Of a stretch of DNA of 64,000 bases, positions 3,001-6,000 are shown in pieces; within the stretch, counting starts at the first letter, position 1, and the number at the start of each line of letters is the position of its first letter. This DNA comes from Candidatus Tantalella remota. Its GTDB lineage: Bacteria; Omnitrophota; Gorgyraeia; Tantalellales; Tantalellaceae. Position numbers: made by a program. Location: positions 11,735-75,734 of the forward strand of contig JAVCCB010000050.1 of NCBI GenBank assembly GCA_030765685.1, read 5' to 3'.

Positions 3001-6000
3001 TAAGATTGTCCGACGCGAATGCGACTAAGGCCAACCTGAAAGACCTGATGAAGGCTACAGGGCTTGATAAGTATCTCAGTACTGATAATGTGAAGATAGT
3101 ATCGGGCGAGATGACACTTGAAGAGACCCTTGAGGTCGTAAAGGGTACGTTCGAGATCACCGACGCGAGTGAAGTAGCGATAGGTGACAGTGTGGACCTT
3201 ATAAAGACAGATAAAGACAGAGAACTGATGTCGGCAGAGAAGGCCCCTGTATACGTCCAGATGGACGGAGACGGGATAGCGTCCCAGTTGCTCCTGACAG
3301 TGCTCGAGATAGTCGCTAACGACGGCAAGGTGCCGGCGGCCCTGGGGCAGATCAGCACAAAGGACGGGTACACCAACTGGTACGTGTATCTGCCGAACAT
3401 GGAAAAGATAGATCTTGACGATCTCAAGAATGAGATCAAGAACTACGAGAGGATCTTGATAGCGGCGTAATGCTAACGGTATTACGCATGGAGGCGGGAA
3501 GCCGTTCGGGCCCCGCAGGGTAGGTAGGGGCTCGAACGGTCATCTGTTCACCGAATGGAGGCGGGGAACATAGTTTCCAAGCCTGAAACGCTCTGCGCCG
3601 GAATGCCAAGCATCGGAGCAGGGCGTTTTGCATTAAAAGCAGTGACCAGTGATCAGTGACCAGTGATCAGTTGCTGATGACTGATGACGGGTCCCTGATA
3701 TCCCAATAGCCTGATCACCTAGTCCCCGATGTCCTGATCCCCAGATATCCTGAACTCGATACCCCGATGTTAGCCTACCTTGTTAGAGATTTAAAAGGTA
3801 GAAAATTAGAGGTTGAAGTGAGCCTATAGCTGTGTTATAGTAGGTATATCATTGGAGTTAATTAAAGAAACAGTTAGATAAGGCATATCCGGGGGGATAA
3901 TGGCAGGGCGTTCAAACAGACTATGTAAGGTAATATCTATAACAATTCTTCTTGTTTTTACCTTCCAACAGATCGGCTGGGTTCAGGAAGGCCGGCCGGT
4001 ATGGTCAAATTCACTTAATTCATTCAATATACAACCTCATGGTTCATTTCCCGACGTAAAGGTACCTTATGATGTGGGTGAGGTCAACGAAAGAGCCGAT
4101 TATGGCGGAAAAGACCTCATTATCAATATACAGGATGCCCATGCTTCACTCTCCGGGCAGCATTCTATAGTAAATATACTTAATACTCTTATCAGCCAAT
4201 ATGATGTGGATCTGATCGCCCTTGAAGGCGGTTCGGGGTATATCGATACTTCTATCTTGCAGACCTTTCCCGACAAAGATATACGTAAGAGTACGGCCAA
4301 TTTTCTGATGAAGGAAGGGAAGCTGAGTGCGGGGGAGTTCTTTGCCGCGACAAGTGACAGGTCGGATATCGCGTTCTATGGAGTCGAGGACAGTGAACTT
4401 TATGAGAAAAATATATCAAGTTTTAAAGATGTTATGGAAGAGCGGACAGAGTATGTCGGAAATGCCGAGTCTCTGATCGTGCAGCTGGATGCCATATCGG
4501 AAAAGGTATATTCTGAAGAACTTAAAAGCTTTCAGGAAAACTCCAGGAGTCACCGGACAAGTAGAAAGGGATTTGAAGAATACTGGGACAGCCTAAAGGC
4601 GCTTGCCGAAAAGAAGGGGGTATCTTTTAAGGGTCATCCTAATGTGAGGAAACTTGTGGAGGCTATGCGTATAGAGAAGTCGATAGATTTTGCCGAAGCC
4701 AATGCTGAGAGAAAAGAACTTATAAATTCATTAAGCAATGTCCTGGACAGAAAGACTATGGAGGACCTGGTTTACAGGTCCCTGCTGTTCAAGCAGGGCA
4801 AGATATCTCCCGCAGATTTTCACGCGTATCTCGATCTCGTGGCTTCGACCGGTGGGGTAGATACCTCCCCCTATGAAAACCTTAATAAGTTCATTAGATA
4901 CGTTTCCGTATATGAGGACATAGAGATAACCTTGCTTTACAGGGAGATGTCCGATCTTGAGGACACAATAAGAGAAAAACTTTTCCGTAATGATGATGAG
5001 CGTGACCTGCATGCGTGGATAAAATTGATGGAGCTTCTGGTGAAGCTTTACAGCGTTGAGCTTAACAATAATGAATTCGGGTATATCGAGAATAACAGAG
5101 GTATGTGCGAAGCCTCGAAGATCGCGGCGTTTTTGAAGGATATCTGCCGGAGATACGATGTTTCTGCCGGAAAAGGATATGAGACGGGGCTTATCTTCGA
5201 GGGGATGGACGAGGCAGTGGTGTTCTATCTGACCGCGGAGAAGAGGAACAGGGCGCTTCTTGAGAATACTCTCAAGAAAATGAAAAGTGAGGGCAAGCAT
5301 GTAGCCGCGCTGATAACGGGCGGTTATCACACCAGCGGTCTTAGGGAACTGCTGAAGGATAAAAAATTGTCCTATATGGTAGTCGTGCCTAAATTTCAGG
5401 AAGGCGAGGAACGGCCCTATATCGCGATACTTACCAACAAGAAAAAACCTTATCAGAAACTTATAGAGTCAGGCAGGTACCAGCTGGCAGTAATGGCCTA
5501 TTTTGAGGATATGAATGAAGAAAAGTTCATAGAAAGCGCCATGTACGCTTTGGCGAGTGTTGCCTCCTCCGGCGGAGATTGGAAAGCAGAGGCAGGTATG
5601 TGGTTCTCTCTATATTCTCACGAATATGAGCGTCTTCGCGTCGAGTCGGAAGAAAAAGTCGACGGCAGTATAACTCCGGCGGAATTCGCCGGGATCCTGG
5701 GGACGGGGCAGGCCGGCTCCGAAGGGCAGCTCAGGATAGAGCAGTGGAACGATTCTGTGTTAGTTATCCGTACAAAGGACACTGAAACTTCATATTTTAT
5801 TTTAGACCCCGGTGAAGGCGGCGTGCTGAAATCCCCCCAAGCATTGTCGCCTATCCGGGGGCAACAGATACTTGAAGAGATCTCTGCAGGTGGGAAAACG
5901 GCCCGTCAGGGATCAGGGGAGAGCGATCCCTCTTTCGTATCCGGTATGAGTGAGGGGGATATCAGGGTATTGATACAAAGGCTGAATGATGACAAGGAGC

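What the first reader, a model, noticed from the sequence alone, without database searches (positions are those of the whole stretch)
3639..3772. Recurrent degenerate heptamer tandem repeats in chromosomal intergenic spacers (two families, both orientations)
Several chromosomal intergenic spacers contain short tandem 7-8-mers. Family A (cagtgac / acagttt / acagttc) occurs at 3639-3690, 22967-23055 (13 units) and, inverted, at 41746-41771. Family B (cctgatatcc / ccccgatgtcc) occurs at 3691-3772, 22947-22965 and, inverted, at 41890-41946. The two families sit side by side at three loci. Tagtatt heptamers occur at 36660-36692, 36938-36971 and 42858-42876, and caatgctc octamers at 42064-42090. None occur in the AT-rich island after 43410. 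They are too short and spacer-less to be CRISPR. They could be slipped-strand contingency tracts, protein-binding arrays, a lineage-specific genome signature, or a mobile mini-repeat.
Basis: seen in the sequence. Interest (0 to 1): 0.65.

Follow-up and report, generated by a model that had tools for sequence, protein, structure and literature searches.

The report
Heptamer repeat arrays in Omnitrophota spacers
The short 7-8-base tandem repeats between genes are real; they are this bacterial lineage's version of the heptamer simple-sequence repeats already known from cyanobacteria and Xanthomonas, mixed with copies of a small conserved palindrome-type element, and nothing suggests a gene switch.

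Summary
The window is a contig of the Antarctic-lake MAG Candidatus Tantalella remota (Omnitrophota).

**Period-7 excess.** It is far above chance. Across 287 kb of window plus related Omnitrophota loci there are 56 arrays, against 6 in shuffles. Nearly all lie in the roughly 10% of DNA that is non-coding.

**Turnover.** Units differ from spacer to spacer and from genome to genome. Syntenic spacers hold unrelated arrays, and arrays are gained, lost or resized between relatives of 82-92% identity. This fits slippage-generated long simple-sequence repeats, the class that includes cyanobacterial STRR, Xanthomonas GGGNATC and Beggiatoaceae TAACTGA repeats.

**Family B is different in kind.** It is a conserved ~65-nt C-rich block of 8-nt units (CCNGATNN plus CCTAGTCCC).
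- It has three copies here and 13 pattern hits in seven other MAG assemblies.
- In eight of those hits it is the 3' arm of a ~130-nt hairpin.
- The window copies are solo arms. Each has its C-rich strand on the sense strand and lies just upstream of a predicted promoter.

**Family A.** At two loci it is a 37-nt homologous block, amplified to 12 units at 22964-23052.

**Verdict.** There is no support for phase variation, G-quadruplexes, CRISPR or an artefact. This is a new phylum for a known kind, and moderately interesting.

The parts
3640..3671 (+). Heptamer array (CAGTGAC/CAGTGAT) x4.6; a perfect 14-mer x2.3
   Evidence: TRF; lag scan
3674..3697 (+). (CTGATGA) x2 plus the start of the B block. 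This is the inverted partner of the CAGTGAY array, and together they form a hairpin spanning 3640-3697.
   Evidence: the repeat finder (24-nt arms, 79% complementary). The 126-nt stretch 3575-3700 that contains it, together with the neighbouring 3586-3628 hairpin, folds with z = -4.8. For 3636-3700 alone, the + strand folds better than the - strand (-26.8 vs -21.6 kcal/mol).
3687..3753 (+). Family B copy W1. A full-length C-rich arm of ~8-nt units: GTCCCTGAT ATCCCAAT AGCCTGAT CACCTA GTCCCCGAT GTCCTGAT CCCCAGAT ATCC. A degenerate tail runs on to 3772.
   Evidence: nhmmer profile hit, E = 1.6e-17; alignments
3813..3841 (+). Promoter-like site TTGAAG-17-TATAGT (with TG) for the 3104-aa gene, 41 nt downstream of the repeat block
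   Evidence: consensus match only
22604..22633 (.). Perfect 12-bp hairpin flanked by A and T runs; the terminator of the 3060-aa gene
22718..22845 (+). Nested palindromic element (GATTCCCGCTT / AAGCGGGGATC type) lying 5' of the B copy
   Evidence: the fold of the enclosing stretch 22690-22915 gives z = -5.3. Similar GATTCCCGC hairpins sit 5' of B in L020 and L027.
22909..22959 (+). Family B copy W2 (a 5'-truncated C-rich arm)
   Evidence: nhmmer E = 2.1e-10
22955..23052 (+). Family A. A 37-nt block (22955-22991) homologous to 41741-41777(-), amplified here to (GTTTACA) x12.3 with a 28-nt higher-order period.
   Evidence: TRF; alignment; nhmmer; the fold is unstructured (z = +1.5)
23028..23056 (+). 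Promoter-like site TTTACA-17-TATACT. The -35 hexamer is supplied by a repeat unit.
   Evidence: 10 of 12 positions; consensus match only
36633..36741 (+). Block made of the last 28 nt of the solute-binding-protein gene, (TTAGTAT) x4.9 (36661-36694) and a terminator hairpin (36694-36725)
   Evidence: TRF
36757..36775 (+). Short (GACGGTA) x2.7 tract that is also a palindrome
36911..37020 (+). Second copy (91-94% identity) of the 36633-36741 block, including (TTAGTAT) x4.9 at 36939-36972 and the terminator hairpin
   Evidence: the repeat finder
41710..41738 (-). Promoter-like site TTGCCT-17-TATATT (with TG) for a 68-aa two-helix membrane ORF (41458-41664, - strand), 2 nt downstream of the A block
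41741..41777 (-). Family A block, unamplified (about 4 units: CAGTTCA CTGTTTA CAGTTTA CTGTTCC)
41769..41885 (.). Hairpin with 35-nt arms (74% complementary), lying between the B and A blocks
   Evidence: fold
41890..41939 (-). Family B copy W3 (C-rich arm, one unit shorter than W1)
   Evidence: nhmmer E = 5.6e-11
42059..42089 (.). Octamer array (AATGCTCC) x3.9, abutting the bidirectional terminator 42091-42132 that follows tRNA-Leu
   Evidence: TRF
42854..42872 (+). (TTTAGTA) x2.7, 13 nt after the smpB stop codon
   Evidence: TRF

Best explanation
The tracts are the local sample of a habit shared by many, though not all, Omnitrophota genomes. Their non-coding spacers accumulate short tandem arrays whose unit is almost always 7 bp, and sometimes 8 bp.

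**Origin (inferred).** Arrays are seeded from whatever short sequence is present, often one arm of an existing hairpin. They then grow, shrink and vanish by replication slippage and small block duplications. They persist only where no reading frame is disrupted.

**Family B is a second layer.** It is a conserved ~65-nt C-rich block of CCNGATNN units with a CCTAGTCCC unit in the middle. In other Omnitrophota it is usually the 3' arm of a ~130-nt hairpin, so it resembles a doublet of REP elements (a REPIN). The three copies in this window are solo arms.

**Family A.** At two loci it is a 37-nt homologous block. At 22.9 kb slippage has amplified it to 12 units.

**Likely effect (inferred, not shown).**
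- Where arrays occur as inverted pairs they fold into long stem-loops in the transcript, at gene ends. There they would act as terminator extensions, insulators or RNA-stabilising structures.
- Unpaired arrays between a terminator and the next promoter are largely neutral filler, although one of them supplies the -35 box of the promoter for the 1521-aa gene with phosphoglucomutase/phosphomannomutase (PGM/PMM) domains (23090-27655).
- They are not on/off switches.
For: **Identity.** The window's 1521-aa protein is 100% identical to a Ca. Tantalella remota MAG protein.

**Period-7 excess.**
- 6 segments at lag 7, against 0-4 at other lags.
- 56 arrays against 6.2 in shuffles.
- 63 intergenic against 28 'coding' arrays at period 7, while every other period falls mostly in coding DNA. 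There are 0 arrays in the 32 kb of non-Omnitrophota control loci.

**Turnover.**
- The syntenic spacer between the giant gene and the PGM/PMM-domain gene holds (ACAGTTT)12 here. In L018 it holds (GCTATTG)13, (AGGGATT)6.6 and (CTTCTGT)6.9. In L019 it holds (AGGGGTC)4 with an inverted (GACCCTT)3. In L002 it holds no array.
- L008 and L012 are 90-95% identical in the flanks. L008 nevertheless has a 131-nt array element where L012 has a 36-nt simple hairpin.
- L009 (82% identical to L008) has the same element with about 5+9 units instead of 6+5.

**Slippage signature.** A perfect 14-mer x2.3 and a 28-mer x3.

**Inverted-pair hairpins.**
- They occur in L007, L008, L009, L019 and at window 3640-3697.
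- The L008 hairpin has 16 G-U pairs. It folds at -67.8 kcal/mol on the sense strand against -29.5 on the other strand, which points to an RNA-level structure.

**Spacer type.** Arrays per kb of spacer are 3.2 in convergent, 1.56 in co-directional and 0.37 in divergent spacers.

**Family B.**
- Three homologous window copies.
- 17 genome-collection hits to a 19-base pattern, against about 4 expected by chance (my estimate). Thirteen are in Omnitrophota or mislabelled 'Planctomycetia' MAGs.
- Eight of those form hairpins with 38 consensus base pairs.
- A profile search finds both arms in those loci but only the C-rich arm in the window.

**Literature.** Heptamers are the commonest long simple-sequence repeat in repeat-rich bacteria, and polymerase slippage has been proposed as the cause (Mrazek 2007, as summarised in PMC4679880). 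Xanthomonas GGGNATC repeats show the same intergenic bias, the same under-representation between divergent ORFs, frequent inverted pairs, and length variation between close relatives (PMC4692102).
Against: - Slippage was not observed directly. No read-level or within-population length variation could be obtained for this genome.
- The rest of the MAG could not be fetched, so 'genome-wide' rests on 43 kb of chromosome plus relatives.
- Several relatives (L002, L006, L016) have no arrays, so the trait is patchy and its cause is unknown.
- Pure slippage does not explain why B keeps invariant GAT and CC positions across seven assemblies, nor why its variable positions sit at unpaired sites in the hairpin.
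- It also does not explain why B always has the same orientation relative to transcription here, nor why GTGAC-type heptamer arrays adjoin B in five loci. These points hint at selection or at recognition by a protein.
- Most hairpins show no clear strand asymmetry, and most are not followed by a T-run.
Confidence: 0.6

Rival explanations
1. Family B, and perhaps the A block, is a non-autonomous mobile element of the REPIN or MITE type. A transposase encoded elsewhere in the genome would spread it. The solo arms in this window would be decayed, immobile remnants.
For: - The element is dispersed, intergenic and of conserved sequence, with several copies per genome: four in JBDRMG01, three in CAZUYM01, two each in JBAZKL01 and CAZPNW01, plus further profile hits.
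- It has a doublet-hairpin architecture with ~60-nt arms and a ~12-nt loop.
- It is absent from the syntenic relatives L002-L019.
- The B-then-A order recurs at two window loci.
Against: - No transposase, target-site duplication or empty-site/filled-site pair was found.
- There are no hits in viral contigs.
- Arms built from tandem 8-mers can also arise by slippage on both arms of an older palindrome.
- In L023 and L031 the element lies inside stop-free giant reading frames.
Confidence: 0.2
2. The arrays are arrays of binding sites for an RNA- or DNA-binding regulator. They would form a regulatory network, as proposed for the TAACTGA repeats of Beggiatoaceae and the heptamer repeats of Nostoc.
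For: - The three A/B loci have a constant orientation relative to the downstream gene, and each sits 0-41 nt upstream of a predicted -35 box.
- B has invariant GAT/CC positions while its variable positions are unpaired.
- GTGAC-type arrays adjoin B in L027, L031, L035, L036 and the window.
- Deleting heptamer repeats changed promoter behaviour in Nostoc constructs (bioRxiv 10.1101/2022.06.06.494920).
Against: - Heptamer units differ at nearly every locus and in every genome, so no single sequence-specific binder can explain them.
- Syntenic spacers carry unrelated units or none at all.
- Arrays are rarest in divergent spacers, which contain only promoters.
- No candidate binding protein was identified.
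Confidence: 0.12
3. The arrays are phase-variable contingency tracts. Gain or loss of a unit by slippage would switch the neighbouring giant surface or glycan genes on or off.
For: - The longest array (12 units) lies directly upstream of a gene in a mannan-utilisation cluster, and it overlaps the predicted -35 box.
- Copy number differs between related genomes.
Against: - No array lies inside an ORF or between the -35 and -10 boxes. Adding or removing units upstream leaves the promoter spacing unchanged.
- The arrays are impure (75-88% matches), which lowers slippage rates.
- The neighbouring genes are of all kinds.
- The same conclusion was reached for the Xanthomonas and Nostoc repeats (PMC4692102).
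Confidence: 0.04
4. Family B works as a G-quadruplex (antisense strand) or i-motif (sense strand) element, like the GGGNATC and GGGGA(C/T)T repeats of Xanthomonas and Nostoc.
For: - The complement of B is made of NNATCNGG units with a GGGGACTAGG unit. That is close to the GGGNATC and GGGGACT units (PMC4692102).
- Its position, G-rich on the antisense strand upstream of an ORF between aligned genes, matches that paper.
Against: - A scan for four G-tracts of at least 3 G, with loops of at most 7 nt, finds none at any window B copy. Among the eight hairpin-bearing loci it finds only two sites, and only one of them (in L022) lies in a B hairpin arm.
- The unit is 8 nt rather than 7, and many G-runs are only 2 long.
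- In relatives the G-rich arm is paired with the C-rich arm.
Confidence: 0.03
5. The tracts are chance local duplications or assembly artefacts.
For: Some individual rows are marginal, with 2-3 units and scores of 30-36. One of them (29715-29739) is simply a signal-peptide coding sequence.
Against: - The excess over shuffles is about nine-fold and is specific to period 7.
- The same phenomenon appears in independent NCBI, ENA and JGI assemblies.
- The arrays are shorter than a sequencing read.
Confidence: 0.01

Closest known systems
Long simple-sequence repeats of the 5-11-nt class, in which heptamers predominate (Mrazek et al. 2007, as summarised in PMC4679880 and PMC4692102)
   Same: - Tandem direct repeats in which the 7-nt unit dominates.
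- Over-represented relative to chance.
- Confined mainly to non-coding DNA.
- Phylogenetically patchy.
- Attributed to polymerase slippage.
   Different: - Not previously listed for Omnitrophota. The library searches found no mention.
- Arrays here are short (3-13 units) and impure.
- They are often arranged as nested inverted pairs.
Cyanobacterial STRR heptamers: STRR1 CCCCA(A/G)T, STRR2 TT(G/T)GTCA, STRR3 CAACAGT (Mazel et al. 1990; recalled from my own knowledge)
   Same: - Heptanucleotide tandem arrays in intergenic regions.
- Several unit families per genome.
- The unit AGTCCCC inside B is a rotation of STRR1.
   Different: - No tandem run of any STRR unit, even allowing up to 3 mismatches in 3 units, occurs in the window or in any fetched locus.
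- The phylum is different.
- Units here are far more diverse and are not shared between genomes.
GGGNATC / GGGGA(C/T)T quadruplex-forming repeats of Xanthomonas and Nostoc (Rehm et al. 2015, PMC4692102)
   Same: - The complement of family B is built from ATC-N-GG(G) and GGGGACT units.
- Intergenic, mostly between aligned ORFs and rare between divergent ones.
- Frequent convergent inverted pairs that can form stem-loops.
- Length and sequence variation between close relatives.
   Different: - The unit is 8 nt, not 7.
- B is a fixed mosaic of about 7 units conserved across genomes, not a homogeneous array.
- Canonical G4 motifs are absent from the window copies.
TAACTGA direct repeats of marine Beggiatoaceae, some cyanobacteria and Bacteroidetes (MacGregor 2015, PMC4679880)
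   Same: - Intergenic heptamer direct repeats of 2-6 or more copies.
- Orientation fixed relative to the downstream gene.
- Sporadic phylogenetic distribution.
   Different: - There is no TAACTGA tandem here.
- The arrays do not overlap the ribosome-binding site. They lie upstream of predicted promoters or downstream of stop codons.
- There are many unit sequences rather than one.
REP elements and their doublets (REPINs), and small palindromic MITEs such as Correia or ERIC elements (recalled from my own knowledge)
   Same: - Family B is dispersed and intergenic.
- It is about 130 nt long when complete.
- It is an imperfect palindrome forming a long hairpin.
- It also occurs as single arms.
   Different: - The arms are internally periodic (8-nt units).
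- No associated RAYT or other transposase, and no target-site duplication, has been identified.
- In two genomes the element lies inside giant open reading frames.

Membership tests
Heptamer-class long simple-sequence repeats (LSSR) | Tandem direct repeats with a unit of 5-11 nt, heptamers predominant, and more or longer than chance predicts | tested here: met
   period 7 gives 56 arrays against 6.2 in shuffles, while other periods stay within about 2-fold apart from small counts at periods 6 and 12.
Heptamer-class long simple-sequence repeats (LSSR) | Strong bias to non-coding DNA | tested here: met
   63 of 91 period-7 arrays lie in the ~10% of DNA that is intergenic. In the window, 9 of 10 are intergenic.
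Heptamer-class long simple-sequence repeats (LSSR) | Copy number and presence vary between close relatives | tested here: met
   The comparison of L008, L009 and L012, and the unrelated arrays in syntenic spacers. Within-population variation was not testable.
Cyanobacterial STRR | Unit sequences STRR1, STRR2 or STRR3 in tandem | tested here: not met
   zero hits for three tandem units with up to 3 mismatches, in the window and in all loci.
Cyanobacterial STRR | Host is a (heterocystous) cyanobacterium | tested here: not met
   The host is Ca. Tantalella remota, Omnitrophota.
GGGNATC / GGGGA(C/T)T G4-forming repeats | Heptamer unit with a G3-4 tract followed by (N)ATC or ACT, repeated in tandem | tested here: inconclusive
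   The complement of B has ATC-N-GG(G) and GGGGACT units, but with an 8-nt period and many GG runs. No GGGAATC, GGGGATT or GGGGACT tandem was found.
GGGNATC / GGGGA(C/T)T G4-forming repeats | At least four G-tracts able to form a quadruplex | tested here: not met
   the canonical G4 pattern is absent at all three window copies. Among the eight hairpin-bearing loci it occurs at two sites, only one of them in a B hairpin arm. Biophysical formation is not testable here.
GGGNATC / GGGGA(C/T)T G4-forming repeats | Intergenic, mostly between aligned ORFs, rare between divergent ORFs, with frequent inverted pairs | tested here: met
TAACTGA repeats (Beggiatoaceae type) | Unit TAACTGA, lying directly upstream of the start codon and overlapping the ribosome-binding site | tested here: not met
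   One search finds no tandem. The arrays end 35-230 nt before start codons, upstream of the predicted -10 boxes.
Phase-variation contingency loci | The repeat lies within an ORF, or between the -35 and -10 boxes, or in the 5' UTR, so that unit number sets expression | tested here: not met
   The only 'coding' row (29715) is a chance signal-peptide repeat.
Phase-variation contingency loci | Length heterogeneity within one population | not testable with these tools
   No reads were available. Neither the window genome nor the Ace Lake contigs were retrievable.
REP / REPIN or MITE | Dispersed intergenic imperfect palindrome with many copies per genome, occurring as doublet hairpins and as singlets | tested here: met
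   For family B only.
REP / REPIN or MITE | A cognate transposase (RAYT or IS) in the genome; target-site duplications or empty sites | not tested
   Only 8-kb loci were available. No empty/filled pair was found among the fetched loci.
CRISPR array | Repeats of 20-50 nt separated by unique spacers of similar length | tested here: not met
   Units are 7-8 nt long and lie head to tail with no spacers.
Known RNA families (Rfam 15) | A match at the family's gathering score | tested here: not met
   The window gives only tmRNA and tRNA. No family matches the B hairpins, apart from a chance sub-threshold miRNA-precursor hit on one of them.

The most novel reading that the evidence does not exclude
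Omnitrophota would possess a dedicated 'spacer grammar'. In this reading, paired inverted heptamer/octamer arrays and the conserved B hairpin, together with its adjoining GTGAC arrays and GATTCCCGC hairpins, are selected RNA-level punctuation elements recognised by a lineage-specific factor. They would separate transcription or translation units. When read through without stops, as in L023 and L031, they would become the linkers that weld neighbouring genes into the phylum's giant ORFs.
Probability: 0.12. Interest if true: 0.7.

Novelty: new member of a known kind. Interest (0 to 1): 0.36.

Why it matters
**Extension to a new phylum.** The finding extends the unexplained 'heptamer preference' of bacterial simple-sequence repeats to Omnitrophota. 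This is an uncultured phylum of ultra-small, host-dependent cells with giant genes, and the literature searched here does not mention such repeats in it.

**A natural experiment.** Syntenic spacers in genomes of graded relatedness carry unrelated arrays, or none. The group therefore offers a way to ask two questions: why 7 bp, and what switches the process on, for example mismatch-repair status or polymerase properties.

**A usable marker.** The conserved B hairpin is a concrete, searchable element. It could serve as a lineage marker, or as an entry point to a REPIN-like mobile system or a regulator.

**Practical warning.** Gene callers will fuse or split ORFs around these arrays.

**Overall.** None of this changes how gene regulation is understood. 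It is a moderately interesting genomic-signature result.

Tried and rejected
1. **Fetching the source genome.** Exact-protein look-ups of four window proteins, including the 100%-identical P0001, found no record. The rest of the MAG could therefore not be scanned.
2. **Looking for population variants.** The single metagenome scan returned relatives of only 53-85% identity and no Ace Lake contigs. The planned test for read- or sample-level length polymorphism was impossible.
3. **Is the CAGTGAY array a decayed G-rich 5' arm of the B hairpin?** Alignment against eight real 5' arms gave scores within the shuffle range; the best was 20 against a null maximum of 19. Idea dropped.
4. **G-quadruplex reading of B.** There are no canonical motifs at the window copies.
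5. **Strand asymmetry of the B hairpins, as evidence for an RNA function.** Differences were small and inconsistent: the C-rich-3'-arm strand was favoured in 6 of 8, mostly by less than 3 kcal/mol. Only the L008 and L009 heptamer hairpins are clearly asymmetric.
6. **Known RNA families.** None match.
7. **Viral carriage of B.** No hits in IMG/VR.
8. **Published heptamers.** TAACTGA, STRR1-3, GGGAATC, GGGGATT and GGGGACT are all absent as tandems.
9. **The TTGGTAT row at 29715-29739.** It lies in a lipoprotein signal-peptide coding sequence and is not an intergenic array.
10. **The closest relatives by synteny.** L001 at 87% does not cover the array-bearing spacers, and L016 (66%) and L002 (60%) have no arrays.

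
Full report
**What the window is.** The 1521-aa ORF at 23090-27655 is 100% identical to a protein of the MAG 'Candidatus Tantalella remota' on a 78,845-bp contig. This is an Omnitrophota genome from Ace Lake, Antarctica. Bases 1-43,400 are chromosome:
- three giant ORFs (3104, 3060 and 1521 aa), two of which have embedded phosphoglucomutase/phosphomannomutase (PGM/PMM) domains;
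- a mannan-utilisation cluster;
- tRNA-Leu, the presumed smpB gene and tmRNA.

After the tmRNA comes an AT-rich island encoding a primase, GmrSD and a type I restriction-modification system.

**Checking the observation.** TRF confirms the tracts at essentially the stated coordinates:
- (CAGTGAY) x4.6 at 3640-3671;
- (CTGATGA) x2 at 3674-3688;
- (GTTTACA) x12.3 at 22964-23052;
- (TTAGTAT) x4.9 at 36661-36694 and at 36939-36972;
- (AACAGTA) x3.4 at 41745-41768;
- (AATGCTCC) x3.9 at 42059-42089;
- (TTTAGTA) x2.7 at 42854-42872.

A lag self-match scan finds six segments at lag 7, against 0-4 at any other lag from 4 to 12. All of them are intergenic. A weaker TRF row, TTGGTAT at 29715-29739, lies in a signal-peptide coding sequence and is a chance repeat. 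The two TTAGTAT arrays at 36.6 and 36.9 kb belong to one ~108-nt block that is duplicated 278 nt downstream. That block holds the gene's last 28 nt, the array and the terminator.

**Is it a property of the lineage?** The source genome could not be fetched. I therefore collected relatives through homologues of two window proteins: L001-L019, at 44-87% amino-acid identity, from NCBI, ENA and JGI assemblies.
- In 287 kb, de-duplicated TRF rows give 56 arrays at period 7, against 6.2 in composition-preserving block shuffles. Other periods stay within about 2-fold of expectation, apart from small counts at periods 6 and 12.
- Adding the later loci, 63 of 91 period-7 arrays fall in the ~10% of DNA that is intergenic. 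Every other period falls mostly in coding DNA. Four non-Omnitrophota control loci (32 kb) have none.
- The trait is patchy. L007 has 16 arrays in 20 kb, while L002, L006 and L016 have none.

**Turnover.** The unit sequences are almost never shared.
- The syntenic spacer between the giant gene and the PGM/PMM-domain gene holds (ACAGTTT)12 here.
- In L018 the same spacer holds (GCTATTG)13, (AGGGATT)6.6 and (CTTCTGT)6.9.
- In L019 it holds (AGGGGTC)4 with an inverted (GACCCTT)3. In L002 it holds no array.
- L008 and L012 are 90-95% identical in the flanking genes. L008 nevertheless carries a 131-nt array element where L012 has a 36-nt simple hairpin.
- L009 (82% identical to L008) has the same element with about 5+9 units instead of 6+5.
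- Within the window, the perfect 14-mer x2.3 and the 28-mer x3 show recent multi-unit duplications.

This is the behaviour of slippage-driven simple-sequence repeats.

**Architecture.** Many arrays come as inverted pairs around a GC-rich hairpin, sometimes nested in the order A, B, loop, B', A'. Examples are L007 at 608-677, 2470-2630, 4349-4495 and 14419-14488; L008 and L009; and L019 at 5899-5981 and 9548-9688.
- The L008 element has 16 G-U pairs. It folds at -67.8 kcal/mol on the sense strand against -29.5 on the antisense strand, and it ends in a T-run. It therefore behaves as a very long terminator-type RNA hairpin. Other pairs show no such asymmetry.
- In the window, the CAGTGAY array and the following CTGATGA tract form such a pair (3640-3663 with 3674-3697, 79% complementary).
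- The 12-unit ACAGTTT array has no partner and is less structured than shuffled sequence (z = +1.5).
- Arrays per kb of spacer are 3.2 in convergent, 1.56 in co-directional and 0.37 in divergent spacers. The numbers are small. The trend matches what was reported for Xanthomonas (PMC4692102), and it links arrays to gene ends rather than to promoters.

**Family B is something more specific.** The three B tracts align without gaps over a 33-mer, CCTAGTCCCmrATsyyyyGmTymCCwGATATCC. Their local alignment scores are 31 and 45, against a shuffle maximum of 28.
- I scanned 185,579 species genomes with TAGTCCCNNATNNNNNGNTNNCCNGATATC. This gave 17 hits, where about 4 are expected by chance (my calculation from 19 fixed bases and 1.2e12 positions).
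- Four hits are in unrelated taxa and look like chance. Thirteen are in Omnitrophota MAGs, or in MAGs labelled 'uncultured Planctomycetia/Planctomycetales', with 2-4 hits each in four of the seven assemblies. Reading those labels as mislabelled Omnitrophota is my inference.
- In eight of the thirteen, the C-rich block is the 3' arm of a ~130-nt hairpin whose 5' arm is G-rich (GGGGACTAGG...GGATATC). Fold energies are -50 to -77 kcal/mol, with 38 consensus pairs. The conserved GG/CC and ATC/GAT positions pair, and the variable positions stay unpaired.
- TRF reads these arms as period-8 arrays of 5-7.6 copies.
- A profile of the arm scores window 3690-3753 second best of all (E = 1.6e-17). In the full hairpins it finds both arms, but in the window it finds only the three C-rich arms. 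The window copies are therefore solo arms.
- All three have the C-rich strand on the sense strand of the flanking genes. Each lies between the upstream terminator and a promoter-like site: TTGAAG-17-TATAGT at 3813; TTTACA-17-TATACT at 23028; TTGCCT-17-TATATT at 41738 on the minus strand, serving a 68-aa membrane ORF.
- B was not found in the syntenic relatives L001-L019, in viral contigs or in Rfam.

**Family A.** The tracts at 22955-22991 and 41741-41777(-) are 78% identical over 37 nt (nhmmer E about 6e-8), and both follow a B copy. At 41.7 kb the block has about 4 units. At 22.9 kb it has been amplified to 12, and the array supplies the predicted -35 hexamer. Because the array lies upstream of that hexamer, a change in unit number would not alter the spacing between the -35 and -10 boxes.

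The CAGTGAY array at 3640 is not significantly related to this block. It is also not significantly related to the G-rich arm of B. GTGAC-type heptamer arrays do, however, adjoin B in L027, L031, L035 and L036.

**Comparison with known systems.**
- According to MacGregor's summary of Mrazek et al. 2007 (PMC4679880), heptamers are the most abundant long simple-sequence repeat in repeat-rich prokaryotes, and slippage tied to the polymerase footprint was proposed as the cause.
- Rehm et al. (PMC4692102) describe GGGNATC and GGGGA(C/T)T heptamers in Xanthomonas and Nostoc. They show the same intergenic bias, scarcity between divergent ORFs, frequent inverted pairs, and variation between sister species. 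Their function is unresolved.
- The complement of B is built from closely similar units (ATC-N-GG and GGGGACT), but with an 8-nt period. It lacks canonical G4 motifs in the window.
- None of the published units occurs as a tandem here or in any fetched locus: TAACTGA, STRR1-3, GGGAATC, GGGGATT or GGGGACT.
- The finding therefore belongs to the known kind, heptamer-class simple-sequence repeats with palindromic variants, but to none of the named sequence families. The literature searches found no report of such repeats in Omnitrophota.

**Verdict.**
- The best explanation (confidence about 0.6) is a lineage-typical simple-sequence-repeat signature generated by slippage. A conserved, REPIN-like palindromic element (family B) is overlaid on it, and it survives here as solo arms.
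- Any function is most plausibly structural, at the RNA level, for the paired arrays. Function is inferred, not shown.
- Phase variation, G-quadruplex, CRISPR and artefact readings are not supported.
- A protein-recognised 'spacer grammar' cannot be excluded. The invariant positions of B and its conserved neighbours hint at one.

Noticed in passing
L023 1-8000 (- strand, frame 0) and L031 1-8000 (+ strand, frame 2): Each 8-kb locus has one reading frame with no stop codon at all. The ~130-nt B hairpin lies inside that frame in both loci, and several period-7 arrays do so in L031. In L023 the hairpin is read as an S/T/R/P-rich linker between protein-like segments. This suggests that former spacers, with their repeat elements, are read through in Omnitrophota giant ORFs.
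   Followed up: partly
window 3900-13214, 13400-22582, 23090-27655: Three consecutive giant ORFs (3104, 3060 and 1521 aa). The last two embed phosphoglucomutase/phosphomannomutase (PGM/PMM) domains I-III (plus IV in the 1521-aa ORF) and mannose-6-phosphate-isomerase-like domains. The first, and the upstream 1093-aa ORF, have no Pfam hit. Homologues of the 1521-aa protein are almost all from Omnitrophota and range from 924 to 2465 aa.
   Followed up: partly
window 43028-64000: tmRNA (43028-43409) is followed at once by a lower-GC island. The island encodes a RepB/PriCT primase, DUF3987, GmrSD, two HsdM, HsdS and HsdR, which makes it look like an integrative defence island inserted at ssrA. It is essentially free of heptamer arrays.
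   Followed up: partly
window 36633-37020: A ~108-nt block (gene end, TTAGTAT array and terminator) is duplicated 278 nt downstream. The 170 nt between the two copies carries GTCATCC...CGAGGGATC motifs (36876-36918). These also occur in the spacers of L013 (3308-3343) and L015, so they are another small element shared between genomes.
   Followed up: partly
window 22690-22915: A strongly structured stretch (MFE -92.9 kcal/mol, z = -5.3) with nested inverted repeats of the GATTCCCGCTT / AAGCGGGGATC type, lying 5' of the B copy. Similar GATTCCCGC...GCGGGAATGAC hairpins lie 5' of B in L020 and L027. An 86-aa ORF (22691-22951) overlaps it and has no Pfam hit.
   Followed up: partly
window 3480-3630: Two strong GC-rich hairpins (3502-3539 and 3586-3628) lie between the stop codon of the 1093-aa ORF and the repeat block. 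The second is probably the terminator, although it has no clear T-run.
   Followed up: no
L008 1-340: Tandem repeats with a period of about 126 nt, containing inverted 30-mers. Related 15-34-nt words recur elsewhere in L008, L009 and L012 (BLAST self-hits).
   Followed up: no
window 43028-43409: ARAGORN reports a very short tmRNA tag peptide (ALAY*). The upstream sequence suggests the tag may be longer or mis-delimited.
   Followed up: no
L011 4356-4447: A 72-nt unit holding (ATTCGAA) x2.9 and a hairpin (GGATGCCCGA...TCGGGCATGAC) is itself tandemly duplicated. This shows that arrays also spread as part of larger local duplications.
   Followed up: no
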